The position numbers and the translations under genes were made by a program. Shown piece after piece: positions 12,424 through 53,353 of a DNA stretch of 64,000 nucleotides. Origin of the DNA: Flavobacteriales bacterium (GTDB lineage Bacteria; Bacteroidota; Bacteroidia; Flavobacteriales_F; PHOS-HE28); assembly GCA_016721825.1 (NCBI GenBank), contig JADKHI010000001.1:1294808-1358807 (forward strand), written 5' to 3'. Position 1 is the first letter of the stretch, and each line of letters starts with the position of its first letter. The notes under the pieces are model-generated. The model did not search any database, had not been told where the DNA came from, and saw only the letters and a list, made by a program, of their open reading frames with translations.

Positions 12424-12440
12424 GGGGCTTCCGGTAGGGC

Positions 12441-13379
12441 TCATTCGAACACGGGACAACTGACGATGGTCTTGCTCGGGTCATTCGCCTTGCAGGGGTA
12501 GATCGCAAGGATGACCTCGTGGGTATTGGAACTGGCCACGCGCAACCGGCTCGTGGTCACGTCGTAGCTGTACCCCAAGGTGAAGTAGTTGAGGAAGGGC
12601 AACTTGATCATGAAGGACACCGCATCCTGGTTGCGGTAGCCGATGCCGAAGCCGAGCCGCTTCTTGTACTCGAACATCGCGTTGATGTCGAAGGCCAGCG
12701 GCGTGGCAGGCCCCAACTTCAACAAGGTGCTCGGCACCATGGAGAAGGTCTTGCTGAAGCGATACCGGTAGCCGGCGCTGGCCAGGAACTGGCGCGCCAG
12801 CCGGGAGTCCTCGCCCACATCGGTGATGCGGTTGCCCAGCACTTGGTGGATCGAAAGCCCCGCCCAGCCGCTCTTGCTGTAGAACCAGATGCCCGGCGTG
12901 ATCACCGGGTAGATCATGGTGGACCGCTTGGCGTCCAGGATCGGGTCGTTGTAATTGTTCAGCGTCAGGTCGGACACGTCCAGCTTGAACTGCTTCATGC
13001 CGCCGAAGAAGCCCAGGGACATGTAGCTGTCCTTGTTCATCTGGATGTGGTAGGCATAGGCCAGCAGGAATTGCGTGTAGCCGATGGGGCCGGTATCGTC
13101 CGCTTCCACGAAGGCACCGACACCGTGCCGGTTCTGTTGGTAGGGTTTGCCTTTCGGCTTGATCACGCCGTGCAAGCTGGCCCAGGCCGTCACCGGTGCG
13201 TTCTCAAAGCCCACCCACTGGCGCCGATAGCCCAGGCGCACATCCAGGCAATCCTTGCTGCCCGCCACGGCCGGGTTGATGCTGAAGTGGTTGAACACGT
13301 ACTGCGTGTACTGCGAGATCTGCTGCGCGGTTGCACGCGAGCCGATCACCAGGCCGATGAGGAGCAGCAGCTTTTTCAT
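12441..13379 (-). CDS. PorP/SprF family type IX secretion system membrane protein
   Basis: The track ORF is extended upstream. The real start is MKKLLLLIGLVIGSRATAQQISQYTQYVFNHFSINPAVAG at 13379. This ATG overlaps the stop of the upstream CHU_C gene (ATGA at 13376-13379). Confidence 0.85.
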   Translation of the reverse strand: MKKLLLLIGLVIGSRATAQQISQYTQYVFNHFSINPAVAGSKDCLDVRLGYRRQWVGFENAPVTAWASLHGVIKPKGKPYQQNRHGVGAFVEADDTGPIGYTQFLLAYAYHIQMNKDSYMSLGFFGGMKQFKLDVSDLTLNNYNDPILDAKRSTMIYPVITPGIWFYSKSGWAGLSIHQVLGNRITDVGEDSRLARQFLASAGYRYRFSKTFSMVPSTLLKLGPATPLAFDINAMFEYKKRLGFGIGYRNQDAVSFMIKLPFLNYFTLGYSYDVTTSRLRVASSNTHEVILAIYPCKANDPSKTIVSCPVFE

Positions 13380-23774: not shown

Positions 23775-25883
23775 TCAACGCACTTCGGCGCCCGGGGCAA
23801 TAATGTCCTTGGGCTGCACGAACACGAGCTTGCCCGCGCTGTCCTCGGCCATCAGCACCATGCCCTGGCTTTCGACACCGCGCATCTTGCGGGGTTCGAG
23901 ATTGGCCACCAGCACGACCTGCTGACCGACCAGTTCCTCCGGCGCGTAGTGCATGGCAATGCCGCTGACAACGGTTCGTGGTGACGCTTCACCCAGGTCC
24001 ACGGCGAGCTTCAGCAGCTTGTCGGCCTTGGGCACGCGCTCGGCGGCAGTGATGGTGCCCACGCGCAGGTCGAGCTTCGCGAAATCGTCGAAGGTGATGT
24101 TGGGCTTGGCAACAGGGGCAGGAACAGGAGCCGGACCAGGGGCAGGACCAGGGGCGGGAGCAGGGGCTGCTTGTTGAGGCTCCATGGCGTGCAGGCGTTC
24201 CACTTCCACGGCGATCTCTTCGTCGGTAATGGGCTTGAAGAGGTGCTCGGCTTTGCCCAGCGCCTGGCCTTCGCCTACGAGGTCACTGCGGAAGGCCTGG
24301 TCCCACGGCAGCGCGTTGATGCCGAGCATGCGGCGCAGCTTCTGCGCGGTGAAGGGCAGGAAAGGCTCCAGCACGATGCTGAGCGTGGCCGCGATGTTCA
24401 GACTGTTGGCCAGGATGGTGCGGGTGCGGACCGGATCGGTCTTCTCCAACTTCCACGGCTCGTTGTCGCTGAGGTACTTGTTGCCGGCGCGCGCCACGTT
24501 CATGGCACTGCTCAGCGCATCGCGGAAGCGGAAGTGGTCGATGTGCCTCGCCACCTCTTCCACGTTGCCGTGCACGGCGCTCCACAGGTCCATATCCAGG
24601 TCCGAGCGTTCACCGGCCGCCGGTGCGTTGCCGCCGTAGTACTTGTGGCAGAGCACGAACACGCGCTGCACGAAGTTGCCGAGGATGGCGACCAGCTCGT
24701 TGTTGTTCTTGTCCTGAAAGTCCTTCCACGTGAACTCGCTGTCGCGGAACTCGGGGATGATGGTGGCCAGTGCGTAGCGCAGCTCATCCTGGCGATCGGG
24801 CCAACGCTCGATGTACTCGTGCAACCAAACAGCCCAGTTGCGGCTGGTGCTGATCTTGCGGCCTTCGAGGTTGAGGAACTCGTTCGCGGGCACGTTCTGT
24901 GGAAGCACGTAGCCGCCGTGCAACTTCAGCAGGATCGGGAAGATGATGCAGTGGAAAACGATATTGTCCTTGCCGATGAACTGCACCAGGCGTGTGTCGT
25001 CGTTCTTCCACCACTTCTGCCAATCCTCGCCCTTGTCCTTCGCCCATTGCTTGGTGGCGCTGATGTAGCCGATGGGCGCATCGAGCCATACGTAGAGCAC
25101 CTTGCCTTCTGCACCGGGCAATGGCACGGGCACGCCCCAATCCAGGTCGCGCGTCATCGCACGGGGACGCAGACCGTCCTTCAACCAGCTGTTGCATTGG
25201 CCCAGTACCTGTGGCTTCCATTCGCCCGCGTCGTGGTGCTTCACACCGTCGAGCATGCCGGTGTTGATCCACTCATCCACCCATTGCTGGCTGCGCTCCA
25301 TGGGCAGGTACCAGTGCGTGGTGGGCCGCAGCACGGGCTTGGCACCGCTGAGGGTGCTGCGCGGATCGATCAGGTCCTTCGGGCTCAACGCGCTGCCGCA
25401 CTTCTCGCATTGGTCGCCGTAGGCATCGGGGTTGGCGCAGGTGGGGCAGGTGCCCATGATGTAGCGGTCCGCCAGGAACTGCTTCGCCTCCTCGTCGTAG
25501 TACTGCTGCTCCTCCTGTTGGGTGAAGGCGCCGTTCTCGTTCAGCTTGAGAAAGAAGCCCTGGCTGGTCTCCTTGTGCAGCTCGCTGCTGGTGCGGTGGT
25601 AGATGTCGAAGTGGATGCCGAAGTCCTGAAAGGCCTTGCCCATCAACGCGTGGTACTTGTCCACGATGGCGCGCGGGGTGGTGCCTTCCTTCAGCGCGCG
25701 GATGGTGATGGCCGCCCCATGCTCATCGCTGCCGCACACGAAGAGCACGTCCTTGCCGCGCTGGCGCAGGCTGCGCACGTAGATGTCCGAAGGCAGGTAG
25801 GCCCCGGCAATGTGGCCGATGTGCAGGGGGCCGTTGGCGTAGGGCAGGGCGGCGGTAACGGTGTGGCGGGCGGGTTCCTTCAC
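23775..25883 (-). CDS. metG: Methionine--tRNA ligase with a C-terminal EMAP/tRNA-binding domain
   Basis: TAALPYANGPLHIGHIAGAYLPSDIYVRSLRQRGKDVLFVCGSDEHG carries the HIGH motif. Zinc knuckle: CPTCANPDAYGDQCEKCG. C-terminal tRNA-binding domain: DLRVGTITAAERVPKADKLLKLAVDLG...LVANLEPRKMRGVESQGMVL. Confidence 0.95.
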   Translation of the reverse strand: MKEPARHTVTAALPYANGPLHIGHIAGAYLPSDIYVRSLRQRGKDVLFVCGSDEHGAAITIRALKEGTTPRAIVDKYHALMGKAFQDFGIHFDIYHRTSSELHKETSQGFFLKLNENGAFTQQEEQQYYDEEAKQFLADRYIMGTCPTCANPDAYGDQCEKCGSALSPKDLIDPRSTLSGAKPVLRPTTHWYLPMERSQQWVDEWINTGMLDGVKHHDAGEWKPQVLGQCNSWLKDGLRPRAMTRDLDWGVPVPLPGAEGKVLYVWLDAPIGYISATKQWAKDKGEDWQKWWKNDDTRLVQFIGKDNIVFHCIIFPILLKLHGGYVLPQNVPANEFLNLEGRKISTSRNWAVWLHEYIERWPDRQDELRYALATIIPEFRDSEFTWKDFQDKNNNELVAILGNFVQRVFVLCHKYYGGNAPAAGERSDLDMDLWSAVHGNVEEVARHIDHFRFRDALSSAMNVARAGNKYLSDNEPWKLEKTDPVRTRTILANSLNIAATLSIVLEPFLPFTAQKLRRMLGINALPWDQAFRSDLVGEGQALGKAEHLFKPITDEEIAVEVERLHAMEPQQAAPAPAPGPAPGPAPVPAPVAKPNITFDDFAKLDLRVGTITAAERVPKADKLLKLAVDLGEASPRTVVSGIAMHYAPEELVGQQVVLVANLEPRKMRGVESQGMVLMAEDSAGKLVFVQPKDIIAPGAEVR

Positions 25884-25920
25884 GGGTTCGGTTCACTTCG
25901 TTGCGCGAAAGTACCGGAAT

Positions 25921-26140
25921 GTGCAGTTGACAGTAGGCAGGGGCAGGTGGCAGGAGCAGGTGGCAGGTGGCAGGAGCAGTTGGCAGGTGGCAGGAGCAGG
26001 GATGTGCGGCAGCGGAGCTTTCTTCTTCCGGGCCACAGGCCATGGGCTGCGAGCTTCGGGCCACGAGCTTGTTCTCGGCAGCGGAGCGTTCTTCATCTGT
26101 GGGCAGTGGGCAGTTGACAGTGCGCAGTTGGCAGTTGAAG
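25921..26140 (+). repeat. Mosaic intergenic repeat element, copy R1 (modules G-A-J-B-J-C-G)
   Basis: GGCAGG-type tandem array at 25937-26000. Two copies of the GCGGCAGCGGAGC..TTCTTC junction motif. GGGCCACGAGCT-type array at 26028-26070. GCAGTTG array at 26103-26140. The core matches 40449-40542 reverse-complemented. Confidence 0.8.
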
Positions 26141-26187
26141 TGCGCGCGGATGCTGAAGGACCGGTCTCGCGAGGATCTTCGCGGTTG

Positions 26188-27162
26188 ATGTCCTTGATCC
26201 TTCCCCCTGCACTCCGACCCGGCGACACCATCGCCATCATCCCAACCGCCCGCGCCATCACGGTGGAAGAGCTGCGCGATGGAATTGCAATGGCGGAAAG
26301 CTGGGGCTTGAAGGTGAAGCTGGGCGCAGGCATCGGGCGCAAGCATTTTCAGCAGGCCGGTACCGCCTTGGAGCGAGCCGCGGATCTGCAGGCCGCGATC
26401 CAAGACCCTGCGGTGAAGGCCATCTGGTGCGCGCGCGGCGGCTACGGCACCGTGCGGCTCATGGAGCACATCGACCTTTCGCCTCTACTGAAGAACCCGA
26501 AATGGATCGTCGGTTTCAGTGATGTCACCGTGTTGCACAATGCGTTGCACAACCTCGGTATCAGCACCCTGCATGCCCAGATGCCCCACAACATCGGCGT
26601 GAAGACGGCGGAGTGCGTGGAGACGTTGAGGAGGGCGTTGTTCGGAGAACTGCTTCAGATAGAGGCCACGGGCTCTGGGCCACGGGCCACGGGCTCAATT
26701 TCGGACAACGAACAACGAACAACCGACAACCGCCCCGGCACCTGCGAAGCCGAGCTCATCGGCGGCAACCTCTCCTTGCTCTACGCCTTGCGCGGAACAC
26801 CCTACGACATCGATCCGCGCGGCAAGATCCTCTTCATCGAAGACCTGGACGAGCTGCTCTACCACATGGACCGCATGGTGATGAACCTGCAGCTGTCCGG
26901 TTGGTTCAAGGAGCTGGCAGGCTTGGTTGTGGGTGGCATGGCGGATATGCACGACCGCAATCCGGCGGATCCCTTCGGGCAAAGCGCGGAGGCCATCATC
27001 GCGCAAGCGGTGGCACCCTGCACGTATCCGGTCTGTTACGGTTTCCCCGCAGGCCACATCCCGGACAACCGGGCGCTGGTACTGGGCCAAAAGGCGAAGC
27101 TCAGCGTCACCGCATCGGGTGCAACGCTGGTGTACAATGTTCCGACCAACGCTCGTTCGTAA
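26188..27162 (+). CDS. ldcA: S66 family LD-carboxypeptidase (muramoyltetrapeptide carboxypeptidase)
   Basis: The real start is MSLILPPALRPGDTIAIIPTA at 26188; the upstream part of the track ORF is translated repeat. Family motifs: WCARGGYG, VGFSDVTVLH (Ser nucleophile), GGNLSLLYALRGT, ILFIEDLDE, GFPAGH. Confidence 0.85.
   Translation: MSLILPPALRPGDTIAIIPTARAITVEELRDGIAMAESWGLKVKLGAGIGRKHFQQAGTALERAADLQAAIQDPAVKAIWCARGGYGTVRLMEHIDLSPLLKNPKWIVGFSDVTVLHNALHNLGISTLHAQMPHNIGVKTAECVETLRRALFGELLQIEATGSGPRATGSISDNEQRTTDNRPGTCEAELIGGNLSLLYALRGTPYDIDPRGKILFIEDLDELLYHMDRMVMNLQLSGWFKELAGLVVGGMADMHDRNPADPFGQSAEAIIAQAVAPCTYPVCYGFPAGHIPDNRALVLGQKAKLSVTASGATLVYNVPTNARS
26664..26732 (+). repeat. In-frame repeat-module segment inside ldcA
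   Basis: GGCCACGGGCTCTGGGCCACGGGCCACGGGCTC, then AATTTCG, then GACAACGAACAACGAACAACCGACAACCG. Total 69 nt = 23 codons, encoding ATGSGPRATGSISDNEQRTTDNR. Confidence 0.7.
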
Positions 27163-27211
27163 CACGGCCGCATGGCCAAGGGCCTTTGCCGGTTGGGCCA
27201 AAAACAAGTAG

Positions 27212-27230
27212 GTCGACCCGGTGGGTCGAC
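27212..27230. terminator. Hairpin between convergent genes (possible bidirectional terminator)
   Basis: GTCGACCC-GGT-GGGTCGAC forms a perfect 8-bp stem between the ldcA stop (27162) and the DUF4412-like stop (27269). Confidence 0.4.
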
Positions 27231-27268
27231 GCTACAGGTGCGTATCTACAATGTTGGCGCGTTGCCGA

Positions 27269-27901
27269 TCAGTTCCGCTCGAACTTGTTGAAGCCGGCGG
27301 GGATCTCGAAGATGGTCGGCTTCTGCGCGACCTTGATCACTTTGGTGACCTCGAGCTTGCTGACCTCCGCGCCGTCCAGCTTGTTCTCCACGCCGAGCAT
27401 GGGGAACACACCTTTGGCATCCTTGATCTCCAGGAAGAACACGGCCTGTTCGTCCTTGCGGTTCAGCGTTTCCAGCAGGGGCACGAAGAAGTTGAACTCG
27501 TCGTTGGCCACCCAATAGGTGATCACACGGTCCTCGCGGGGGCTCTTCACCACCCACTTCTCGCACTTGTAGCCGGCCATGTCCTTCATTTCGCCGGTCT
27601 TTTTGATCTCGGTCTCCACGTCCTTGGGCAGGCGCATGTTCGGCACGTCCATGTAGAGCTTGCGTTCGGGGCTGAGCGCGATCACCGTGCGGTCGCGGGT
27701 GTCCACGAGCATGATGCCCTGCACATCGCCACGGGCGCTGATCTCCTCAATGCGGATGTGGTCGCCCTTGACGTAGTACTTGTAGTTCGTGACCACCGGA
27801 CCGGTGGTCTTAGTGAACTCGAGCACGCCCTCGAAGGCCTGGGCCTGAGCAGCGGAGAGACTGCCGAGCAGTGCGAGGGAGAGAATGAAGCGTTTCATCA
27901 T
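27269..27901 (-). CDS. Secreted DUF4412-like protein
   Basis: Start at MMKRFILSLALLGSLSAAQAQ (27901). The family assignment is from memory of similar Bacteroidota proteins (FEGVLEF.K......Y.YYVKGD..R.E). Confidence 0.6.
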   Translation of the reverse strand: MMKRFILSLALLGSLSAAQAQAFEGVLEFTKTTGPVVTNYKYYVKGDHIRIEEISARGDVQGIMLVDTRDRTVIALSPERKLYMDVPNMRLPKDVETEIKKTGEMKDMAGYKCEKWVVKSPREDRVITYWVANDEFNFFVPLLETLNRKDEQAVFFLEIKDAKGVFPMLGVENKLDGAEVSKLEVTKVIKVAQKPTIFEIPAGFNKFERN

Positions 27902-28017
27902 GCGGTGGTGTTGATCGAACGACCGTTCGCTTGGCGGATGAGGCGGAAAGTTCCTCAATTTTAGACCCTTCAACGGGCCCTGGCGCCACAGGTTACGCAC
28001 AGAGGCAAGTTGTTTTC

Positions 28018-28392
28018 ATGGCCGAGCATCTCCGAACGGGTTCATTGGGTGAGCAACTGGCGTGCCAGTTCCTGGAACGCAAGGGATTCAACATCCTGCA
28101 CCGCAACTGGCGTTTCAAGCACGATGAGCTCGACATTGTGGCCCTTGACGGCCGCTTTCTGGTGTTCGTGGAAGTGAAGACCCGGAGCACCGACCGCTGG
28201 GGTGATCCCGAGGACGATGTGAGCCCCGCGAAGATCCGCAAGCTGATGCGCGCTGTGGATGGTTACCTTGACGCATTCCCGACCGAGCTGGAGCTGCGCT
28301 TCGATGTGGTGAGCATCACCCTGAAGCCCCACGAGCCCGAGATCCTGCATATCACTGACGCCTTCTACCCCACACTCGATGAGCAAAGCTGA
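28018..28392 (+). CDS. yraN: YraN family (UPF0102) endonuclease-like protein
   Basis: GEQLACQFLERKGFNILHRNWRFKHDELDIVALDGRFLVFVEVKTRS is the canonical YraN core. Start chosen at MAEHLRTG (28018). Confidence 0.85.
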   Translation: MAEHLRTGSLGEQLACQFLERKGFNILHRNWRFKHDELDIVALDGRFLVFVEVKTRSTDRWGDPEDDVSPAKIRKLMRAVDGYLDAFPTELELRFDVVSITLKPHEPEILHITDAFYPTLDEQS

Positions 28393-30196
28393 CCGACCCA
28401 AGCGCACCGGCAAACCCGCCAAGCGCGCCGGCGCACGGGCCTCCACAGAACGACGCCCCCGCAAGGGCAAACCCGGTGACGATGCCGTCGGCGACGACGA
28501 CCGCGCACGCAGTGCCTTCCGCGGCGAACCCGCGCCCGAACGCCCCCGCCGTTCCTTCGGTGACAACGACGACCGCCCACGCCGCCCCGCACCCCGCGGA
28601 GATGATCGCGGTGGCCGCCCCAGCAGCGACCGCCCCTACCGCAGTGGCCCACGTTCCGATGACCGCGGCGACCGTCCTTCACGCCCCAGCCGTCCGGGCA
28701 GCGACAGGCCTTCCGGTGATCGCCCCTACCGCAGTGGTCCGCGTTCCGATGATCGCGGCGACCGCCCTTCACGCCCCAGCCGTCCGGGTGGCGACCGGCC
28801 TTCCGGTGATCGTCCCTACCGCAGTGGTCCGCGTTCCGATGATCGCGGCGACCGTCCTTCGCGCCCCAGCCGTCCGGGCAGTGACGGGCCTTCCGGTGAT
28901 CGCCCCTACCGCAATGGCCCCCGTTCCGATGACCGTGGTGACCGCCCCTCACGCCCCAGCCGTCCGGGTAGTGACCGACCTTCCGGTGACCGCCCCTACC
29001 GCGCTGGCTCCCGCTCGGAGGACCGCGAACGCCCTTCGCGTTCCGCACGCCCCGGCAGCGACAGGCCCTCCGGTGACCGTCCTTACCGCAGCGGACCGCG
29101 TTCGGATGACCGCGGAGATCGGCCCTCGCGCCCCTACCGCCCCGGTGGCGACCGTCCTTCGGGCGACCGACCGTACCGCGGTGGCAGCGACGGACCGAGC
29201 CGTGGCCGCGATGGCCGCTTCACCAGCCGGGATGACAGTCGCCCTTCGCGCCCCTACGGTGGTCGTGGGGATGACCGCCGCCCGCCCTATTCCGACCGGC
29301 CCGCGCGCCCTTCCAAGGACGAACGCACTTACCGCCCGGACGATCCGCTGGCCCGCAGGCCTTACAACAAGGGCGAGCGCAGCCAACGCTTCGCTCTGCC
29401 CAACCCGGACAACGAAGGCCTGGTGCGCCTGAACCGCTACCTGGCCCAGGCCGGTGTGGGCAGCCGCCGCGAGGCCGATGAGCTGATCACCACCGGTGTG
29501 GTCACGGTGAACGGCAATGTGGTGACCGAGCTGGGCACCAAGATCAAGCCGGACGATGTGGTGCACTACGGCGGCCAGAAGCTGAGCATGGAGCAGAAGC
29601 GCTACGTGCTGATGAACAAGCCCAAGGACACCATCACCACCACGGATGATCCGCGCGAGCGCCACACCGTGATGGACCTGATCGCCAAGGCCTGCACCGA
29701 GCGCCTGTACCCCGTGGGCCGCCTGGACCGCAACACCACCGGCGTGCTGCTGCTCACCAACGACGGCGACCTGGCCAAGAAGCTCACCCACCCCAGCCAC
29801 GGCGCCGAGAAGATCTACCACGCCACCCTGGACAAGAGCATCACCGTGGACGACCTGCACAAGCTGGTGGAGGGCGTGCGCCTGGACGACGGACCCGCCA
29901 GCGCCGAAGAGGCCAGCTACGTGGGCGACAGCAAGCGCGAAGTGGGCCTGAAGCTGCACATGGGCCGCAACCGCGTGGTGCGCCGCATGTTCGAAGCCCT
30001 CGGCTACGAGGTGGTGAAACTGGACCGCGTGATCTTCGCCGGCCTCACCAAGAAGGAACTGCAACGCGGCCACTGGCGCCACCTGACCGATAAGGAGGTG
30101 ACCATGCTGAAGCGCATCAAGAGCGTGGCCACACCCACCACCAAGGAGGAACGCGGCGGCGGAAGACTGCGCGGCCAGCACTTTGGGGATGAGTGA
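28379..30196 (+). CDS. rluB: RsuA/RluB-family rRNA pseudouridine synthase with a long disordered R/D/P/S-rich N-terminal extension
   Basis: S4 domain: VRLNRYLAQAGVGSRREADELITTGVVTVNG. Catalytic motif: YPVGRLDRNTTGVLLLTNDGDLA. The N-terminal ~280 aa are low complexity and include 30-aa tandem repeats. Confidence 0.85.
   Translation: MSKADRPKRTGKPAKRAGARASTERRPRKGKPGDDAVGDDDRARSAFRGEPAPERPRRSFGDNDDRPRRPAPRGDDRGGRPSSDRPYRSGPRSDDRGDRPSRPSRPGSDRPSGDRPYRSGPRSDDRGDRPSRPSRPGGDRPSGDRPYRSGPRSDDRGDRPSRPSRPGSDGPSGDRPYRNGPRSDDRGDRPSRPSRPGSDRPSGDRPYRAGSRSEDRERPSRSARPGSDRPSGDRPYRSGPRSDDRGDRPSRPYRPGGDRPSGDRPYRGGSDGPSRGRDGRFTSRDDSRPSRPYGGRGDDRRPPYSDRPARPSKDERTYRPDDPLARRPYNKGERSQRFALPNPDNEGLVRLNRYLAQAGVGSRREADELITTGVVTVNGNVVTELGTKIKPDDVVHYGGQKLSMEQKRYVLMNKPKDTITTTDDPRERHTVMDLIAKACTERLYPVGRLDRNTTGVLLLTNDGDLAKKLTHPSHGAEKIYHATLDKSITVDDLHKLVEGVRLDDGPASAEEASYVGDSKREVGLKLHMGRNRVVRRMFEALGYEVVKLDRVIFAGLTKKELQRGHWRHLTDKEVTMLKRIKSVATPTTKEERGGGRLRGQHFGDE
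28628..29200 (+). repeat. 90-nt (30-aa) tandem repeat, about 6.4 copies, inside the rluB-like gene
   Basis: The unit is DRPYRSGPRSDDRGDRPSRPSRPGSDRPSG. The nucleotide string ACGCCCCAGCCGTCCGGG recurs with 90-nt spacing, for example at 28681 and 28771. Confidence 0.85.
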
Positions 30197-30362: not shown

Positions 30363-30922
30363 GGCACTCGGCACAGCCGAGCGCCGGTCGGAATTAAACA
30401 ACCAACACAGGGAATGAATCATGAATAAATCAATCAAAGCAGTGATGCTCTTGTCGCTACTCGCCATTTCAAATTGTGGCACTCGGGAAACTGCCGTTCT
30501 CTTGGAAGAAGCTCGGAAGGAAACAGTTGGGTCGAAGAAATTTGAACTCTACGATCAAATTATTCTTGCTGATAGCATGAATGATGTTGCACTTTATGAA
30601 AGGGGTCTACTACATGTCATGTATTACGAACATAGTATAGAATTGAGAAATGAAGGAAACAATATTGATAGTAGTGTTACACAGAAACATTATTTAAACG
30701 CACTTTCTGATTTCAGCAGAACTATTAAGCTTAATCCGAAAAACGGAATGGCCTATGCTAAAAGAGCGCGATTATATTCAATTATGAACAACATTAAGGA
30801 TGCATGCCAAGACTATATGAGTGCCTTTTCAAATGGCATTCCTGTCGATTCAGTTATATTGATTAATTGTCGTGACTGATTACCAAGCTTTACCTTACCA
30901 GCGGTTGGCTGTGCCGAGTGCC
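30363..30922 (+). mobile_element. AT-rich single-gene cassette bounded by perfect 16-bp inverted repeats
   Basis: GGCACTCGGCACAGCC at 30363-30378 and its exact reverse complement GGCTGTGCCGAGTGCC at 30907-30922 bracket the AT-rich ORF 30421-30879. No transposase is present. Confidence 0.4.
30421..30879 (+). CDS. Small lipoprotein with TPR-like repeats, foreign composition
   Basis: MNKSIKAVMLLSLLAISNCG contains a lipobox. The helical repeats (ALYERGLLHVMYYE..., YLNALSDFSRTIKLNPKNGMAYAKRARLYSIMNNIKDACQDY) are TPR-like. Sampled stretches are about one-third GC, against a GC-rich background. Confidence 0.75.
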   Translation: MNKSIKAVMLLSLLAISNCGTRETAVLLEEARKETVGSKKFELYDQIILADSMNDVALYERGLLHVMYYEHSIELRNEGNNIDSSVTQKHYLNALSDFSRTIKLNPKNGMAYAKRARLYSIMNNIKDACQDYMSAFSNGIPVDSVILINCRD

Positions 30923-30976
30923 TTAGCGAAAATCATCATGCTCTGACTGGAAGCCGACCGGACATTTCAAACGCAG

Positions 30977-31001
30977 AACCCCCGGAACCGTTCCGGGGGT
31001 T
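30977..31001. terminator. Bidirectional terminator hairpin between convergent genes
   Basis: AACCCCCGGAA-CCG-TTCCGGGGGTT forms an 11-bp perfect stem between the stops at 30879 (+) and 31058 (-). Confidence 0.55.
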
Positions 31002-31057
31002 GTGCTGAGTGAGAAGAAGGTGCTTCTCGTGGTGTTGTGCACGGGGAAGTGCCGGGC

Positions 31058-31675
31058 TTAAGCGGCGCGGCCGCTGACCACATCGCTCGCGGGGCCTTCG
31101 CCGATACGGCCGAGGGCTGTCACGCGGAACGAGTAGAACTTACCGGGCACCAGATCGGTGATGCGGGCTTTCGCCTTGCTGCTCACCGCCACCATCTGCC
31201 ACTTGCTGGGATCGCTGGGGTCCGCATCGTTGATGTACACCTGGTACATCCGCGCGTCCTCCACACGTTTCCACAACAGGTCCACGCACCCTTCGAAGTC
31301 GCTTACGCGGGCTTCGAGCTTCACTGGCGGGTTCAGGTGAGAGGTGGGTTCAGGCTTCTTGGCCAGCTCAAAGCCGCTGGTCAAGGCCATGTTCACATCC
31401 CCACCGGCCACGTTGTTCACGTAGCGCGCCAGGTTCACCAACAGGGTACGCAGCACCTCGGCGAGTTCGTTCCGCACGGCAATGTCAGCGATGGCACGGC
31501 TCTCCGCTTTCGCGACGGCCGCCACCAAAGCCTCCCGTGCGGCGGTAACGTCGGTGATCTTCGGGTTCGGCGTGGGGAAGTTGGCGTTGGCCGTCATCTT
31601 CCCTTCCACGTACTCCGACTTGGCGATGAGGCCATCGGCGTTCAGCGCGCTGGTTCCTGCCTTGATCAGTTTCAT
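31058..31675 (-). CDS. Fibronectin type III domain-containing hypothetical protein
   Basis: Start chosen at MKLIKAGTSALNADG (31675). The C-terminal ~90 aa (PPVKLEARVSDFEGCVDLLWKRVEDARMYQVYIND...VPGKFYSFRVTALGRIGEGPASDVV) has an FN3 pattern. Confidence 0.65.
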   Translation of the reverse strand: MKLIKAGTSALNADGLIAKSEYVEGKMTANANFPTPNPKITDVTAAREALVAAVAKAESRAIADIAVRNELAEVLRTLLVNLARYVNNVAGGDVNMALTSGFELAKKPEPTSHLNPPVKLEARVSDFEGCVDLLWKRVEDARMYQVYINDADPSDPSKWQMVAVSSKAKARITDLVPGKFYSFRVTALGRIGEGPASDVVSGRAA

Positions 31676-31903: not shown

Positions 31904-32155
31904 ATGCGCATCATGGCCGCTACAATGCGCATCATGATCGCTACAATGCCCAACATAGCGTCTACCATGCGCATCCTGATCCCTACAATGCCCATCATAG
32001 CGCCTACTATGCGCATCATGATCCCTACAATGCCCATCCCAGCCGCTACCATGCGCATCATGATCGCTACCATGCCCATCATGGTCGCTACAATGCGCAT
32101 CATGATCGCTACCATGCCCATCATGGCGGCTACCATGCGCAGGGCATCCGCTTGC
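31904..32155 (+). repeat. 21-nt tandem repeat (true period 42 nt), about 12 copies
   Basis: ATGCGCATCATGATCGCTACM alternates with ATGCCCATCATGGNSGCTACM. Two + frames and two - frames stay open across the array. Confidence 0.9.
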
Positions 32156-35616: not shown

Positions 35617-35994
35617 AGCTGTATTGCAGGTAAGTTATCCAGAATTCTATGAAGTCATTCCCCCTCCGACGCTCGGGTGTCCCGGGTGTGTTACGCTCGC
35701 ACCCATCCGCTTGCCGCTCAATAACTCGCCGCTTACATTCGGACAGGAGGGCGAAGGAGCGCCCGACCACAACAGTTGAAAGGCCCAAAGGCTCAGTAGC
35801 CAGCGTCGCAATTCGAGTAAAGCAAAGCTCGTGGCTCAGGGCTCGGGGCCAATGGACGAAGGAGCAAGCTCCGCTGACGTAGACCAACTCGCCGCTAGCC
35901 GCTCAATACCTCGCCGCTAAAGAATGAGGCAAGCTCCGCGTCCATTGCGTATGTTCGATGAGCGAGATCACAGTTGCACACGAATGCCAAGGTC

Positions 35995-36957
35995 ATGAAA
36001 AGCGCTCTATTCCTTCTTAGCACCCTGCTCGGCTTAGGAACCTACGGACAGAACCTAGTTCCGAACGGCAGCTTCGAACAGTACACTGGCTCCTGTCAGT
36101 TCGGTGTTGGATACGCTAACATGTATGATTGGGTCCGGCCAGATTGTGGTCAATGGCCGGGTTTCGGACATGCTTGCAACAATGGGCTCGGCAATGGTTC
36201 TGGAACCCCGCAAGGTGGCTTGGGATATCAAGAACCAGTTGAGGGTGTTGGCTATGCAATGCTTTGGACATTGCGGATGAATTCCCAGTTATACCCGGAC
36301 GGGAACCCTCAGGTCTATGTCTCTGTGGATTTGACAACACCACTGGTTGCCGGCCAGCGCTATTGCATGCGCTTCTACGCGAACCTCGTCGATTCGGCGA
36401 GCTACAAGACCACAGCTCTGCATGCCTTGTTCTGGTATGGTGTACCAAGTGCATGCAACCAAGCAGATTCCACATGGGACGACCAAGCACAGATCACCTT
36501 TGACATAACCGATGTTGACACGATGAACTGGAAGCTCCTTGAAGGATCCTTCGTGGCCAATGGAGGTGAAGTGAACTTGACGATCGGCTCGTTCCTATTC
36601 GACAGTGAGATCATCAGTACATTTTTAGGGAGTCATCCGATCCATGGCGATAATGCTCTGTATTTGATCGATGATGTCTGGGTGTGGGCCTGCGAAGTCG
36701 GTGTAGAGGAGCACACCAATGATCGCCTGCGCCTGTACCCGAACCCGGCTACGGACCTGGTGCGGATCGCGTTGAACGCCGGTGAGGAAATGGGTACCGT
36801 GAGCGTGCTGGATGTGCAGGGCCGCACGGTGCTTCAGCAGGCCTTCCGAGGCGTGCAAGCGGAGCTGGATGTTTCCGGCTTGAGCAGTGGTGCATACGTG
36901 GTGCAACTGCGCACGGAGCGTTCGGTGTTGTCGGCGCCGTTGCAGGTGGTGCGGTAG
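35995..36957 (+). CDS. T9SS type A sorting domain-containing protein, tandem paralog 1
   Basis: Start at MKSALFLLSTLLGLGTYGQNLVPNGSFEQ. The C-terminus LRLYPNPATDLVRIAL...VLDVQGRTVLQQ...SGAYVVQLRTERSVLSAPLQVVR is a type A sorting domain. The N-terminal two thirds diverge from paralogs 2 and 3 and are less GC-rich. Confidence 0.8.
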   Translation: MKSALFLLSTLLGLGTYGQNLVPNGSFEQYTGSCQFGVGYANMYDWVRPDCGQWPGFGHACNNGLGNGSGTPQGGLGYQEPVEGVGYAMLWTLRMNSQLYPDGNPQVYVSVDLTTPLVAGQRYCMRFYANLVDSASYKTTALHALFWYGVPSACNQADSTWDDQAQITFDITDVDTMNWKLLEGSFVANGGEVNLTIGSFLFDSEIISTFLGSHPIHGDNALYLIDDVWVWACEVGVEEHTNDRLRLYPNPATDLVRIALNAGEEMGTVSVLDVQGRTVLQQAFRGVQAELDVSGLSSGAYVVQLRTERSVLSAPLQVVR

Positions 36958-37108
36958 TTCGTTCCGAGGATTGGGTGACTCGCGTGCGTCACGCTCTTAC
37001 CCATCCGCTAGCCGCTCAAGAACTCGCCGCTAGAGGAATGAGGCAAGCTCCGCGTCCATTGCGTATGTTCGATGAGCGAGATCACTGTTGCACACGAATG
37101 CCAAGGTC

Positions 37109-38068
37109 ATGAAAAGCGCTCTATTCCTTCTTAGCACCTTGCTCGGCTTAGGAACCTACGGACAGAACCTGGTGCCCAACGGCAGTTTCGAGCAGTTCAC
37201 GACGAACTGCAATTTCGGCCTTCAATACTCGATGTTACAGGACTGGGTCTATCCAGATTGCGCTTCTAGTCCCGGGTTAGCTCATGCATGCAACCCGCTT
37301 GCCGGTGTTCCACATAGTGGTTATGGATTCCAAGAGGCCCACAGCGGTGATGCGTTCATTGTCCTTTGGACCCTGAGCATGAACTCTCAGGGTGGTTTCC
37401 CTGATGGCAACCCACAGATGTATGCGAATATCGATCTGAACCAACAGCTTGTAGCGGGCCAGCACTATTGCCTCCGGTTGTGGATGAACATGGCCGATTC
37501 ATCATGCTATCGCACCAGTGCCTTCCATGCCTTCCTGTGGTACGGAACGCCCACGGTGTGCAACTACCAGGATACCGCATGGGACACGTACGCGGCGGTG
37601 ACCTTCGACATCAGTGCGGTGGATACCGCAGGTTGGACCTTGCTGGAAGCCGGGTTCGAGGCCAGTGGTGGCGAGAGCAACCTGACGCTCGGTGCTTTTC
37701 AAACGCTGGACGAGATCGACAGTGTCTTCATCGCGGACCATAGCAATGCGCTTGGGGCCCTACTGGCCGCATATTTCATTGATGACGTGGAGCTGTGGGC
37801 ATGCGAAGTCGGCGTGGAAGAGCATGCCAACGATCGACTGCGCTTGTACCCGAACCCGGCTACGGACCTGGTCCGGGTCGCGTTGAACGCCGGAGAGGAA
37901 ACAGGTACCGTGAGCGTGCTGGATGTGCAGGGGCGCGTGGTGCTTCAACAGGCCTTCCGAGGCGTGCAAGCGGAGCTGGATGTTTCCGGCTTGAGCAGTG
38001 GTGCGTATATGGTGCAGCTGCGCACAGAGCGTTCGGTGTTGTCGGCGCCGTTGCAGGTGGTGCGGTAG
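37109..38068 (+). CDS. T9SS type A sorting domain-containing protein, tandem paralog 2
   Basis: It has the same signal peptide and C-terminal domain as paralog 1. It is nearly identical to paralog 3 from about codon 120 onward. Confidence 0.8.
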   Translation: MKSALFLLSTLLGLGTYGQNLVPNGSFEQFTTNCNFGLQYSMLQDWVYPDCASSPGLAHACNPLAGVPHSGYGFQEAHSGDAFIVLWTLSMNSQGGFPDGNPQMYANIDLNQQLVAGQHYCLRLWMNMADSSCYRTSAFHAFLWYGTPTVCNYQDTAWDTYAAVTFDISAVDTAGWTLLEAGFEASGGESNLTLGAFQTLDEIDSVFIADHSNALGALLAAYFIDDVELWACEVGVEEHANDRLRLYPNPATDLVRVALNAGEETGTVSVLDVQGRVVLQQAFRGVQAELDVSGLSSGAYMVQLRTERSVLSAPLQVVR

Positions 38069-38219
38069 TTCGTTCCGAGGATTGGGTGTCCCGCGTGCGT
38101 CACGCTCTTACCCATCCGCTAGCCGCTCAAGAACTCGCCGCTAGAGGAATGAGGCAAGCTCCGCGTCCATTGCGTATGTTCGATGAGCGAGATCACTGTT
38201 GCACACGAATGCCAAGGTC

Positions 38220-39191
38220 ATGAAAAGCGCTCTATTCCTTCTTAGCACCTTGCTCGGCTTAGGAACCTACGGACAGAACCTGGTGCCCAACGGCAGTTTC
38301 GAGCAGTTCACGACGAACTGCAATTTCGGCCTTGGCTACAATAGTTTGCAGGATTGGACAGATCTGGATTGTGCAGCAAGTCCCGGTTTAGCGCATGCGT
38401 GCAATAACAGCTTGGGCAATGGCAGCGGAGTGCCTCAAGGGGGGCTTGGGTATCAAGTCAGTCACAGTGGCGATGGGTTTATGATGGTATCGACTTTGGT
38501 CATGAATAGCCAGGGTGGCTTCCCGGATGGCAACCCACAGGCTTATGCGAATGTCGACCTGACGCAACCGCTGGTGGCGGGCCAGCACTATTGCCTACGG
38601 TTGTGGATGAACATGGCCGATTCATCATGCTATCGCACCAGTGCCTTCCATGCCTTCCTGTGGTACGGAACGCCCACGGTGTGCAACTACCAGGATACCG
38701 CATGGGACACGTACGCGGCAGTGACCTTCGACATCAGTGCGGTGGATACCGCAGGTTGGACCTTGCTGGAAGCCGGGTTCGAGGCCAGTGGTGGCGAGAG
38801 CAACCTGACGCTCGGTGCTTTTCAAACGCTGGACGAGATCGACAGTGTGTTCATCGCGGACCATAGCAATTTGTTTGGGGCCCTGGTGGCTGCATATTTC
38901 ATTGATGACGTGGAGCTGTGGGCCTGCGAGGTCGGCGTGGAGGAGCATGCCAACGATCGACTGCGCTTGTACCCGAACCCGGCTACGGACCTGGTGCGGA
39001 TCGCGTTGAACACGGGTGAAGAAGCTGGTACGGTAAGCGTGCTGGATGTGCAGGGCCGCACGGTGCTTCGGCAAGCCTTCCGAGGTGTGCAAGCGGAGCT
39101 GGATGTTTCCGGCTTGAGCAGTGGTGCGTATATGGTGCAGCTGCGCACAGAGCGTTCGGTGTTGTCGGCGCCGTTGCAGGTGGTGCGGTAG
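38220..39191 (+). CDS. T9SS type A sorting domain-containing protein, tandem paralog 3
   Basis: It has the same signal peptide and C-terminal domain. Its N-terminal patch is a mosaic of paralog-1-like and paralog-2-like sequence. Confidence 0.8.
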   Translation: MKSALFLLSTLLGLGTYGQNLVPNGSFEQFTTNCNFGLGYNSLQDWTDLDCAASPGLAHACNNSLGNGSGVPQGGLGYQVSHSGDGFMMVSTLVMNSQGGFPDGNPQAYANVDLTQPLVAGQHYCLRLWMNMADSSCYRTSAFHAFLWYGTPTVCNYQDTAWDTYAAVTFDISAVDTAGWTLLEAGFEASGGESNLTLGAFQTLDEIDSVFIADHSNLFGALVAAYFIDDVELWACEVGVEEHANDRLRLYPNPATDLVRIALNTGEEAGTVSVLDVQGRTVLRQAFRGVQAELDVSGLSSGAYMVQLRTERSVLSAPLQVVR

Positions 39192-39997: not shown

Positions 39998-40097
39998 GGG
40001 TGCGGTGGGTTGGGTTGAGCGCCAAAGGAACCGGGGATGGGGGGCTGCACACGGAGATGGAGGCGGGCGTTATCAACGGGATGCGGTGGATCGGGGT

Positions 40098-40660
40098 GGC
40101 TCGCAGGCTCGCTGGGGGTTAACCGCAGATGACGCAGAGCACGCAGATGAAATGGCGGCATAGCGAAGGCTCGCTGGCTCGCTGGAGTTTAGAACCACAG
40201 ATGAACGCAGATGCACACAGATGGAATTCTGAGCGCGCGATGGTTGAGCTCGCAGGCTCGCTAGTTGAACCACAGATGGCACAGATGGCCGCAGATGAAA
40301 TGGCGGCATGGTAGGGGCTCGCAGGCTCGCTAGTGGTGAACCACGGATGGACACGGATGAACACAGATGGAAATACCTAGAGCGATGAACGGGGTTCGCT
40401 GGCTCGCTGGGTGCTAACCACGGATGGACACGGATGCACACGGATACTGATAAGAGCTTGCTGCCGAAAACAAGCTCGCGGCCCGAAGCTCGAAGCTCGT
40501 GGCCGCAGCTGAAGAGGAAAGCTCCGCTGCCGCACATCCCTCTTGCCGCTAGCCGCTGGCCAACTCGCCGCTCCTGCCCTTGCTCCTGCTCCTTCCAACT
40601 GCCCCTGCCCCTGCCCCTGCCCCTGCTCCCGCGCCTGCTCCTGCCCCCGCCCCTGCCCCC
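40098..40660 (-). repeat. Mosaic intergenic repeat element, copy R3 (largest copy; forward orientation on the minus strand)
   Basis: Five tandem 68-79 bp units start at 40098, 40168, 40247, 40315 and 40393. Each is GGCTCGCWGGCTCGCT plus three CRCRGATG units. They are followed by modules J, B, J, F and an 89-bp C-rich A module (40572-40660). Confidence 0.85.
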
Positions 40661-40740
40661 TGATCTTCCCTCCCCGAACACTTCCCCCCCGCCCCGGCAC
40701 GTTCTGTGCTCAACAACACGCTGTGAACGATCGGTCTTCC

Positions 40741-43428: not shown

Positions 43429-43429
43429 G

Positions 43430-43694
43430 TGTCAAGGGTCAAGTAGCAAGGGACAAGTGACAAGAGGCTTCGGGCCATGAGCTGCGAGCCACGAGCTTAT
43501 TTGCGGCAGCAGAGCCCTCCTCATCTGTGTCCATCCGTGTTCATCTGTGGTTTATTCAACGCCGGCAGCGCGCTTGCGCGCGGTTCCATCTGTGGCCATC
43601 ATATCGCGCGCAGGCACAGGCAGTGCAGTTCATCTGTGTCCATCTGCGTCCATCTGTGGTTAAGTCTCTCGGAAGGAACTGCGAGCCTGCGAGC
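43430..43694 (+). repeat. Mosaic intergenic repeat element, copy R4 (modules E-B-J-C...C-D)
   Basis: GTGTCAAGGGTCAAGTAGCAAGGGACAAGTGACAAG (E). CTTCGGGCCATGAGCTGCGAGCCACGAGCTT (B). TTGCGGCAGCAGAGCCCTCCTCATC (J). CATCTGTGTCCATCCGTGTTCATCTGTGGTT appears twice (C). GCGAGCCTGCGAGC (D). Confidence 0.8.
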
Positions 43695-43799
43695 AACGCG
43701 TCCTATGCGGTTCAGCATTCCTGCCGTTCCCGGCTTTCTCCGCGCCTCAGCGTCTCTGCTGCCAACCAATGAACGCCTCCGATCACCGATCTTCACCCC

Positions 43800-45305: not shown

Positions 45306-45306
45306 T

Positions 45307-45795
45307 CAGGGGCAGGGCCAGGACCAGGGGCATTGAACCTCCGTATCATTTCGTCCGCTTTAGCTTTCGTGAAAACGAACCAACAATGGCAGGCTTCAAG
45401 GACATGTCCATCTACAAGAAAGCGTTCGAAATGGCACGCATGGTGTTCACACTGAGCAAACGCTTTCCGAGCGAAGAGAAGTTCTCACTTACCGATCAGG
45501 TGCGGCGTTCGTCGAGATCGGTGACCGCTCAATACGCCGAGGGCTATCGCAAGAAGCGCTACCCGGCCCATTTCATTTCAAAGATGACCGATGCGGACGG
45601 CGAGAACGCCGAAACGCAAGTGTGGTTAGACCATGCCGTGGCCTGTGGCTACGTCACAGAGAATGATATCGCCCCCATCCTCAAAGTCTCCGAAGAAGTT
45701 GGACGCATGCTTGGGGACATGATCGAGAACCCCGAGAAATACGTTGGCAAGCGGCCCTAAAGGGATCACTTGCCCCTGCGCCTGCTCCTGCCCCT
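45307..45795 (+). mobile_element. Candidate cassette: four-helix-bundle gene bracketed by about 25-bp imperfect inverted repeats of the GGCAGG module
   Basis: The left end is AGGGGCAGGGCCAGGACCAGGGGCA (45308-45332). The reverse complement of the right end (45771-45795) is AGGGGCAGGAGCAGGCGCAGGGGCA, a 21/25 match. The cassette fills the whole gap between the kinase stop (45305) and the hemW start (45800). Its interior is less GC-rich than the flanks. Confidence 0.4.
45386..45760 (+). CDS. Four-helix-bundle protein (23S rRNA intervening-sequence protein family; Avd-like fold)
   Basis: MAGFKDMSIYKKAFEMARMVFTLSKRFPSEEKFSLTDQVRRSSRSVTAQYAEGYRKKRY...ETQVWLDHAVACGY matches the conserved pattern of this family. 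Confidence 0.8.
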   Translation: MAGFKDMSIYKKAFEMARMVFTLSKRFPSEEKFSLTDQVRRSSRSVTAQYAEGYRKKRYPAHFISKMTDADGENAETQVWLDHAVACGYVTENDIAPILKVSEEVGRMLGDMIENPEKYVGKRP

Positions 45796-49967: not shown

Positions 49968-50109
49968 GTCAGGAGGCAGGGGCAGAAGCAGGAGGCAGTG
50001 ATCTGGACAGCGAAGCCTTCGTCTTCAGCCGGCCACGAGCTGCGAGCCTTGAGCCCCGAGCTTCTTTTCGTTAGCAAGCTCCTATCAATTTCCGTGTTGA
50101 TCCGTGGTT
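49968..50109 (+). repeat. Mosaic intergenic repeat element, copy R6 (modules A-J-B-J-C)
   Basis: GTCAGGAGGCAGGGGCAGAAGCAGGAGGCAGTG (A). GGCCACGAGCTGCGAGCCTTGAGCCCCGAGCTT (B). TTCGTTAGCAAGCTCCTATC (J-like). TCCGTGTTGATCCGTGGTT (C). Confidence 0.75.
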
Positions 50110-50167
50110 CGTTCTTTGGCCATACATACTCTAGAGCGCTTCGGCCCATGGATCCTATCTTTCCGCC

Positions 50168-52529: not shown

Positions 52530-52569
52530 GGCGGCGAAGATACCCGCCCGTCCTCGCCATCTTTGCTCC

Positions 52570-53291: not shown

Positions 53292-53353
53292 CCCGCCTTC
53301 CTCAAGAACATTCCCCCATCTCCCCTGTTCCTACCTTCGTTCGTCAGTTCACC

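What the first reader, a model, noticed from the sequence alone, without database searches (positions are those of the whole stretch)
25921..26140. Second full copy of the mosaic element; about 95-bp core shared with 40449-40542 in inverted orientation; possible orientation rule
On the + strand the order is G (GTGCAGTTGACAGTAG), then a 64-bp A array, J (GATGTGCGGCAGCGGAGCTTTCTTCTTC) and B (CGGGCCACAGGCCATGGGCTGCGAGCTTCGGGCCACGAGCTT). These are followed by J (GTTCTCGGCAGCGGAGCGTTCTTCATC), one C unit (CATCTGTGG) and G again. Bases 25999-26097 align to the reverse complement of 40449-40542 (GAGGGATGTGCGGCAGCGGAGCTTTCCTCTTCAGCTGCGGCCACGAGCTTCGAGCTTCGGGCCGCGAGCTTGTTTTCGGCAGCAAGCTCTTATC). In all four full copies the C/D end points at the start codon of a co-oriented gene about 50-100 bp away: ldcA at 26188, DUF3332 at 39997, the histidine kinase at 43800 and the DMT transporter at 50168. 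Only the two copies lying between tandem genes are informative for this rule, so it is suggestive only. If it holds, the element could supply promoter or 5'-leader function.
Basis: seen in the sequence. Interest (0 to 1): 0.6.

Follow-up and report, generated by a model that had tools for sequence, protein, structure and literature searches.

The report
Strain-variable mosaic repeat between genes
The stretch between metG and ldcA is a real copy of a non-coding repeat family made of short tandem arrays around a conserved core; it is confined to one lineage of sludge Flavobacteriales, varies between strains, and shows no promoter, leader or folded-RNA features.

Summary
Bases 25921-26145 have the stated module order (G, A array, J, B, J, C, G). 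They align with the reverse complement of 40446-40610 far above chance (score 148; shuffles 20 +/- 2.4). Four independent sludge assemblies reproduce the stretch without a difference.

The element belongs to a dispersed, non-coding mosaic family. It consists of tandem arrays of 7- and 10-base units around a conserved core of about 30-95 bp. It occurs in one uncultured Flavobacteriales lineage from activated sludge. Relatives with 92% and 83% identical MetRS showed none in the 13-22 kb read. Strains 97-99% identical differ by whole repeat units.

In tandem gene contexts the orientation count is 4 with and 1 against (efp / reversed element / lpxD), which is not significant. No promoter consensus lies inside any copy. 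Boxes resembling the Bacteroidota -7 box lie in the unique spacers between the elements and the start codons. No folded RNA or Rfam family was detected, and the RNA data are too thin to decide.

Most likely this is slippage-prone dispersed repeat DNA tolerated upstream of core promoters. Its closest relatives in kind are heptamer simple-sequence repeats. Two side findings are unexplained: module C alone recurs in 66 viral contigs, and inverted G-rich arrays bracket four-helix-bundle gene cassettes.

The parts
25921..25936 (+). Module G, first occurrence (GTGCAGTTGACAGTAG). GCAGTTGACAGT recurs as a direct repeat at 26109-26120.
25937..26000 (+). Module A: G-rich tandem array of GGCAGGN units (7-nt period x8.9; 20-nt period x3.2).
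26001..26028 (+). Module J1 (GATGTGCGGCAGCGGAGCTTTCTTCTTC).
26029..26070 (+). Module B: units of type GAGCYNN / GGGCCAC. Its 3' end, together with J2, forms the most conserved block of the family (GCCNCGAGCTTNTTYNCGGCAGC).
26071..26097 (+). Module J2 (GTTCTCGGCAGCGGAGCGTTCTTCATC).
26094..26102 (+). A single C unit (CATCTGTGG). Other copies carry 2-4 units of CATCYGYGKN ending in GGTT.
26099..26145 (+). Module G array (7-nt period x5.3). One sludge sample holds a variant with a 34-nt duplication of 26102-26135.
26146..26187 (+). Unique spacer before ldcA. It holds a -7-box-like GATCTTCG at 26174-26181 and is not part of the repeat.
   Evidence: inference
25906..25913 (-). TACTTTCG, a match to the Bacteroidota -7 box, 22 nt upstream of the metG start and outside the element. 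GCGAAAGTACCG is kept in a related strain whose sequence further upstream differs.
40098..40660 (-). Copy 2: A arrays, J1, B, J2, then five C-D super-units. It lies between DUF3332 (-) and the AsmA-like gene (+).
43429..43694 (+). Copy 3: CAAGKNN array, B, J2, C arrays and D. It lies between the AsmA-like gene and the histidine kinase, both on the + strand.
49968..50107 (+). Copy 4: short A array, J1-like, B, J2 and two C units. It lies between a 287-aa gene and the EamA/DMT gene, both on the + strand.
35826..35844 (-). Partial copy, B-type units only, in the divergent spacer 35617-35973.
   Evidence: (I16)

Best explanation
The element is one copy of a lineage-specific, non-coding dispersed repeat. 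A conserved J-B-J core is flanked by arrays of 7-nt units (A, G, B and CAAGKNN types) and 10-nt units (C). The most invariant part of the core is GCCNCGAGCTTNTTYNCGGCAGC.

Shown: copies share 80-89% identity over 95-170 bp at unlinked sites. All modules of a cluster lie on one strand. Arrays gain and lose whole units between strains, and modules are swapped between orthologous sites.

Inferred: the arrays grow and shrink by replication slippage. The core spreads and is homogenised by copying or gene conversion between loci. The copies persist where they do least harm, in the distal part of intergenic regions just upstream of compact promoters that sit close to the start codon.

The tendency of the C/D end to face the next gene would then be a weak filter of selection or insertion. 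It would not be a sign that the element provides the promoter or the leader.
For: Dispersed copies far above chance. Single-strand polarity of all modules per cluster.

Lineage restriction: six further copies turned up only in related metagenome contigs. There are none in 13-22 kb around metG of relatives with 92% and 83% identical MetRS. The core pattern has 0 hits in IMG/VR.

The spacer between the AsmA-like gene and the kinase is 371 nt here and 44 nt in L147.

Strain variation by whole units: C units number 2, 3 or 4. The A array differs by 17-27 nt. An extra super-unit of about 77 nt is present in some strains. All this is between genomes 97-99% identical. A 34-nt duplication variant exists in one sample. 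The 88% relative L136 shows module swaps at orthologous sites.

No excess RNA stability: z = -0.40, +1.36 and +0.06. The consensus fold of 10 cores is -5.4 kcal/mol with an unfavourable covariation term. There are no Rfam hits.

Promoter boxes lie outside the elements.

Literature: heptanucleotide units are the commonest long simple-sequence repeats in genomes rich in them, and slippage is the proposed cause (Mrazek 2007, as summarised in PMC4679880).
Against: A conserved sequence block of about 30 nt across 10 copies could mark a recognition site for a protein. Recent copying is not the only explanation for it.

The J-B-J core of copy 2 is nearly invariant among strains while the arrays around it vary.

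The 4:1 orientation count and the constant 54-112 nt gap to start codons are compatible with a cis-regulatory role.

Module C recurs in many unrelated viral contigs right at gene starts. That hints at a function for at least this module.

No mechanism of dispersal was identified.

The census covers only about 100 kb of this species plus six short contigs.
Confidence: 0.55

Rival explanations
1. One reading: the element supplies a promoter or a 5' leader for the gene that its C/D end faces.
For: All four window copies face a gene start 61-106 nt away. Four of five independent tandem-context copies are co-oriented. In L218 an inverted pair of C arrays points outward to ftsX and leuS at 112 and 54 nt. 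In some viral contigs a C array sits 13-40 nt before a Shine-Dalgarno sequence plus ATG: 14 forward against 1 reverse. One RNA contig (43740-43890) shows that the spacer upstream of the kinase start is transcribed.
Against: There is no sigma-70 or TAnnTTYS box inside any copy, and the boxes lie in the unique spacers. Relatives lacking the element keep the same genes and the same box. L145 is inverted. Array length varies freely between strains. There is no RNA structure. In viral contigs the C array is co-oriented 17 times and anti-oriented 18 times. No RNA contig of this organism covers an element.
Confidence: 0.15
2. The arrays, mainly the 10-bp-phased C units and the conserved core, are binding sites for a DNA-binding protein. 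The protein could be a regulator, a nucleoid protein or a recombinase. The element would then act as an upstream regulatory or architectural site.
For: A 10-nt period puts successive C units on one face of the helix. The C array ending in GGTT is conserved in 66 viral contigs against about 3.5 expected. The core block is invariant across 10 copies. The elements sit just upstream of promoters.
Against: No candidate protein was found. Unit number, and the C/T variation within units, are unconstrained. Orientation and distance to genes differ among viral contigs. Most genes of the window lack the element.
Confidence: 0.15
3. A miniature mobile element moved in trans by a transposase (MITE or REPIN-like).
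For: Copies are dispersed and lineage-restricted. A 12-nt direct repeat, GCAGTTGACAGT, flanks copy 1. Relatives encode a Y1 (RAYT-like) transposase.
Against: The elements have no terminal inverted repeats and no palindromic units. Copy ends are ragged and module content differs. The 12-nt repeat is itself part of the G array. The Y1 transposase sits among a different, classic REP hairpin that is absent from the window. The window holds no transposase.
Confidence: 0.1
4. A structured non-coding RNA, either a small RNA or a riboswitch-like leader.
For: Some cores can form a 6-7 bp hairpin (GAGCTTG...CAAGCTC), with one compensatory change in L146.
Against: Folding z-scores are near 0. The consensus structure is -5.4 kcal/mol with a covariation term of +0.73. 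No Rfam family matches. Length is hypervariable.
Confidence: 0.03

Closest known systems
Long simple-sequence repeats with heptanucleotide units: Mrazek's LSSR, cyanobacterial STRR and the TAACTGA repeat sets of Beggiatoaceae, Cyanobacteria and some Bacteroidetes (PMC4679880)
   Same: Intergenic tandem arrays with a dominant 7-nt period. Sporadic, lineage-specific distribution. Indels in whole units between close strains. A reported tendency to lie 'forward' upstream of start codons. Function unknown, with slippage as the proposed origin.
   Different: Here several array types are joined in a fixed order around a unique conserved core, and the whole block of about 95-170 bp is itself dispersed. 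The arrays end 54-112 nt from the start codon, not 1-43 nt. The unit sequences are unrelated. STRR is cited from my own knowledge, not from a paper read here.
Bacterial interspersed mosaic elements (BIMEs) built of REP sequences in Enterobacteria and Pseudomonas (PMC2817692)
   Same: High-copy extragenic mosaics assembled from a small set of sequence modules. Variable module content from copy to copy.
   Different: BIMEs consist of palindromic REP units in alternating orientation and are linked to RAYT transposases. This element has no palindromic unit, all its modules share one strand, and the window holds no RAYT.
MITEs / REPINs
   Same: Short, non-coding, dispersed and lineage-restricted.
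   Different: No terminal inverted repeats, no defined ends, no target-site duplications, and internal tandem arrays of variable length.

Membership tests
Long simple-sequence repeats (LSSR / STRR-type heptamer arrays) | Head-to-tail arrays of a 5-11 nt unit, longer than chance, mostly non-coding | tested here: met
   Tandem Repeats Finder: 25936-25994 period 7 x8.9; 26099-26135 period 7 x5.3; 40472-40499 period 7 x4; C arrays period 10 x2.7-3. All lie in intergenic DNA.
Long simple-sequence repeats (LSSR / STRR-type heptamer arrays) | Unit-number polymorphism between close strains (slippage) | tested here: met
   Alignments A4 and A5 of four strains 97-99% identical show gains and losses of whole units. 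One sample holds a 34-nt duplication variant.
Long simple-sequence repeats (LSSR / STRR-type heptamer arrays) | Made up only of a simple repeated unit | tested here: not met
   The J-B-J core is unique sequence of 70-95 bp, conserved between unlinked copies.
REP / BIME | Imperfect palindromic unit of 20-40 nt able to form a stem-loop | tested here: not met
   No inverted repeat of 10 nt or more within 60 nt, apart from one 10-nt palindrome and one 11-nt pair. Folding z-scores are about 0.
REP / BIME | Units in alternating orientation | tested here: not met
   All modules of each cluster lie on one strand.
REP / BIME | Associated RAYT (Y1 transposase) flanked by the same repeat | tested here: inconclusive
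   No Y1_Tnp in the 64-kb window. Relatives have one, but it is flanked by a different REP (GCGACCCCTTCGGGGTCGC) that is absent from the window. The whole genome was not searchable.
MITE | Terminal inverted repeats and target-site duplication at defined ends | tested here: not met
   The two ends (A/G arrays and C/D arrays) are unrelated. The boundaries of similarity differ between copies.
Rfam RNA families / structured RNA | Match to a covariance model, or a conserved structure with covariation | tested here: not met
   Only a tRNA matched in the window. Nothing matched in 10 related loci. RNAalifold gave a covariation term of +0.73.
Bacteroidota sigma-A promoter | -7 box TAnnTTTG (relaxed here to TAnnTTYS) at a short distance upstream of the start | tested here: not met
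   None of the 31 matches in the window lies inside an element. The box is about 28-fold enriched within 45 nt of start codons.

The most novel reading that the evidence does not exclude
The mosaic would be a functional, polar cis-element of a kind not yet described. The decamer array (CATCYGYGKN)n-GGTT would be a recognition signal shared by several bacterial lineages and their phages and placed at gene starts. In this Flavobacteriales lineage it would have been combined with a conserved core and G-rich arrays into an upstream control or insulator module. The same G-rich arrays also serve as the inverted ends of four-helix-bundle gene cassettes.
Probability: 0.15. Interest if true: 0.7.

Novelty: new variant of a known kind. 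Interest (0 to 1): 0.4.

Why it matters
Short tandem arrays in bacterial intergenic DNA have been known for decades and remain unexplained. This case offers a tractable example. It has a fixed module order, a conserved core, clear differences between strains in well-sampled wastewater communities, and one module shared with many uncultured phages. If the polarity reflects function, it would reveal a new layer of gene control in Bacteroidota, whose promoters and translation signals are unusual. If it does not, the family is still a useful strain marker, a cause of broken assemblies, and a warning against reading regulatory meaning into repeat orientation from a handful of copies.

Tried and rejected
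1. The genome-contig scan used a 16-base pattern. That was too short for 596 Gb.

2. I searched the protein database with the translated element, hoping to catch spurious ORFs at other copies. Nothing scored.

3. RNA-type runs exist only as assembled contigs at low depth. None covers an element of this organism, so transcription stays untested.

4. BLAST of a C array against GenBank phages and plasmids gave one cyanobacterial plasmid hit and nothing else.

5. Host assignment of the C-bearing viral contigs by tblastn, and by counts of Shine-Dalgarno sequences and -7 boxes, was uninformative. The hosts appear mixed.

6. I considered that the reverse strand is C-rich and G-poor and would act as a Rho loading site. 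I dropped this because only copy 1 is strongly skewed (G 0.42, C 0.22), while the other copies are balanced.

7. I considered that reversed C units (ACGGAUG) are CsrA-type GGA sites. I rejected this because the G varies freely with A (CACAGATG) in the window copies.

8. A literature search for the motif sequences found only unrelated primers.

9. The D-module scan of viral contigs gave hits at chance level only.

Full report
**Observation**

The stretch 25921-26145 lies in the 304-nt spacer between two divergent genes. These are metG (23775-25883, minus strand) and ldcA (26188-27162, plus strand), by Pfam assignment.

Tandem Repeats Finder reports the A array (25936-26000) with periods 7, 13 and 20. 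It reports the terminal G array (26099-26145) with periods 7 and 21.

A local alignment of the whole spacer against the reverse complement of 39998-40713 scores 148. Shuffled sequence gives 20.1 +/- 2.4, with a maximum of 29. The aligned part is about 25936-26101 versus 40446-40610, so the shared block is longer than claimed because the A arrays align too.

The copies at 49968-50167 and 43429-43799 also align, with scores 67 and 57. The most conserved stretch, GAGCTTNTTYNCGGCAGC, occurs four times in the window against 0.11 expected.

The sequence is real. A separate metagenome assembly matches 25549-28822 at 99.97%. Contigs of four independent sludge runs span 25500-26600 without a single difference.

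**Source and distribution**

The window carries T9SS, SprB, PorP and DUF3332 genes and has 62% G+C. DNA runs that hold it are sludge and wastewater metagenomes. The nearest named MetRS relatives are 'Flavobacteriales bacterium' MAGs. The same species occurs in GCA_016719255.1, GCA_016714845.1 and GCA_964268635.1.

A metagenome scan with a 20-base core pattern gave 25 loci. Only six of them are true copies: L126, L134, L136, L138, L145 and L146. All six have similar G+C and partly syntenic genes.

Relatives whose MetRS is 92% identical (L150, L151) and 83% identical (L147) have no module cluster in the 13-22 kb read around metG. In L147 the spacer between the AsmA-like gene and the kinase is 44 nt. 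It is 371 nt here.

The core pattern has no match in IMG/VR. The composite element is therefore confined to a narrow lineage.

**Anatomy and dynamics**

Within each cluster all modules lie on one strand. The order is G/A arrays, J1, B, J2, C arrays, and then often D (GCGAGCCWGCGAGC).

An alignment of ten cores shows an invariant block, GCC-CGAGCTT-TT--CGGCAGC--AGC. Similarity decays on both sides of it.

Four strains 97-99% identical differ by whole units:
- Copy 4 carries two, three or four C units.
- The A arrays differ by 17-27 nt.
- Copy 2 has an extra C-D super-unit of about 77 nt in some strains.
- The J-B-J core of copy 2 is almost invariant.
- The core of copy 4 carries many substitutions, some of which resemble other copies.

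One sample has a 34-nt duplication in the G array of the copy under study. In the 88% identical relative L136 the orthologous spacers keep elements, but with modules swapped.

These are the marks of slippage-prone arrays joined to a dispersed core that is copied or converted between loci.

**Tests of function**

*RNA structure.* Folding energies of copy 1 (both strands) and copy 3 do not differ from shuffles: z = -0.40, +1.36 and +0.06. The consensus fold of ten cores is -5.4 kcal/mol with an unfavourable covariation term. No Rfam family matches in the window or in ten related loci.

*Promoter.* The spacer holds no sigma-70-type site. The Bacteroidota -7 box is known as TAnnTTTG; I relaxed it to TAnnTTYS. 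It occurs within 45 nt upstream of 12 of 39 start codons against 0.43 expected. None of its 31 matches lies inside an element.

Exact matches serve DMT (TATCTTTC, 50156) and metG (TACTTTCG, 25906-25913, minus strand). Near matches serve ldcA (GATCTTCG, 26174-26181), the kinase (GATCTTCA, 43788-43795) and DUF3332 (TTCCTTTG, 40023-40030, minus strand). All of these lie in the unique spacers between element and start codon. These spacers are invariant among strains. The kinase box is kept in L147, which lacks the element.

That the boxes are the working promoters is an inference. One 151-nt RNA contig (43740-43890) shows transcription upstream of the kinase box. So read-through, or a start site further upstream, is not excluded.

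*Transcripts.* The RNA libraries available are contig-only and shallow. None covers an element of this organism.

**Orientation**

Three of the five clusters in the window lie between divergent genes and say nothing about orientation. Among independent copies between tandem genes, four are co-oriented: window copies 3 and 4, L138 (dnaJ-like to icd) and L146.

One is clearly reversed. In L145, efp is followed by its terminator hairpin, then an element on the opposite strand, then lpxD. Four of five gives p = 0.19.

In new flanking sequence of the same species, an inverted pair of C arrays points outward to ftsX and leuS. This is compatible with the rule but not a test of it.

No cluster lies between convergent genes. 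With about eight such spacers in the window, that is not significant either.

**Comparison with known kinds**

The arrays meet the definition of long simple-sequence repeats. Heptanucleotide units are the commonest class in genomes rich in such repeats, and polymerase slippage is the proposed cause. The TAACTGA repeat sets of Beggiatoaceae, Cyanobacteria and five Bacteroidetes are intergenic, mostly 'forward' to the next start codon, and differ between close strains in 7-nt steps (PMC4679880).

The element differs from these in two ways. It is a fixed-order mosaic with a unique conserved core, and the mosaic itself is dispersed.

It resembles BIMEs in being a modular extragenic mosaic (PMC2817692). 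It fails their defining features, because it has no palindromic unit and no alternating orientation.

It has no terminal inverted repeats and no defined ends, so it is not a MITE.

**Verdict**

The best reading (confidence about 0.55) is a lineage-specific, hypervariable dispersed repeat that is tolerated just upstream of compact promoters. A cis-regulatory or protein-binding role remains possible, at about 0.15 each. The conserved core and the wide occurrence of module C are the reasons to keep that possibility open.

**Side findings**

Module C as a two-unit pattern, ATCYGTGKNCATCYGTGGTT, occurs in 66 IMG/VR contigs. About 3.5 are expected, calibrated on a control pattern that behaved as chance.

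In those contigs it lies either 13-40 nt before a Shine-Dalgarno sequence plus ATG, or reversed and filling the gap between a stop codon and the next ATG, or as inverted pairs. The same contigs are rich in perfect heptamer arrays. They show mixed translation signals, so several host lineages are involved.

Wastewater RNA-type libraries hold contigs of other organisms that match only the C arrays. One of them has a depth of 791.

Separately, a four-helix-bundle gene (PF05635) is bracketed by inverted G-rich arrays at 45299-45332 and 45771-45795. It sits between the kinase and hemN. Its relatives are bracketed in the same way at a rho/DUF4199 locus (seen in two genomes) and at the kinase locus of a more distant relative. 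L147 has the kinase and hemN adjacent, without the cassette.

Noticed in passing
window 45299-45332, 45386-45760, 45771-45795; L232 9861-9913 and 10390-10425; L238 9925-9950 and 10395-10420; L242 9930-9960 and 10379-10431: A small four-helix-bundle gene (Pfam 23S_rRNA_IVP / bAvd-like, 124 aa) sits between the histidine kinase and hemN. It is bracketed by inverted G-rich hexamer/heptamer arrays. Homologous cassettes are bracketed the same way at a rho/DUF4199 locus (seen in two genomes) and at the kinase locus of a more distant relative. L147 has the kinase and hemN adjacent, without the cassette. The family has many members 68-99% identical, mostly on very short contigs. This looks like a mobile or RNase III-processed cassette whose ends are the same kind of array as module A.
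   Followed up: partly
L152-L217 (IMG/VR contigs): The decamer array (CATCYGTGKN)n ending in GGTT occurs in 66 viral contigs of 42-67% G+C, far above chance. It lies forward just before a Shine-Dalgarno sequence plus ATG, or reversed and filling stop-to-ATG gaps, or as inverted pairs. The same contigs carry many perfect heptamer arrays.
   Followed up: partly
window 40336-40369, 40415-40445, 43519-43552, 43629-43659 (read laying, runs X25, X27, X29): RNA-type wastewater libraries contain contigs of other organisms that match only these C arrays and then diverge. One 401-nt contig has depth 791 and one 3159-nt contig has depth 80. Some C-array-bearing sequence is therefore very abundant in those libraries.
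   Followed up: no
L238 6270-7352 (also L239-L241): Relatives carry a 147-aa Y1 transposase (RAYT-like) flanked by classic REP hairpins (GCGACCCCTTCGGGGTCGC) and tandem units of about 60 nt. This REP is absent from the window and unrelated to the mosaic element.
   Followed up: partly
window 43427-43464 and 53191-53353: A further heptamer array type (CAAGKNN) replaces module A in copy 3. Between DUF4230 and ispG it forms an inverted pair with hairpin potential.
   Followed up: no
window, 45 nt upstream of start codons (e.g. 50156, 52535-52542, 53332, 56191-56198, 48452): -7-type promoter boxes (TAnnTTYS) often lie only 3-25 nt before the start codon. This suggests many very short or absent leaders in this organism.
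   Followed up: partly
window 24111-24167: A 12/24-nt array, AACAGGGGCAGG, lies inside metG, between the Pfam anticodon-binding domain (aa 421-563) and the tRNA-binding domain (aa 606-699). It resembles the intergenic A arrays in sequence (inverted match to 40619-40659, 83%).
   Followed up: no
window 35974-39191; 31904-32141; 28628-29184; 3052-12459: Other repeats: three tandem paralogous T9SS-tail genes (82-90% identical), a 21/42-nt array, a 90-nt array x6.2 inside the 5' part of the long rluB-type ORF (28379-30196), and a 3135-aa SprB-type gene built of 237-nt repeats.
   Followed up: no
L136 6601-6760 versus window 30907-31066: In the 88% identical relative, the DUF3332 side of the locus joins directly to sequence that lies at about 31 kb in the window. 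So the 31-39 kb segment, which has lower G+C (0.57), is an insertion or rearrangement in one of the two lineages.
   Followed up: no
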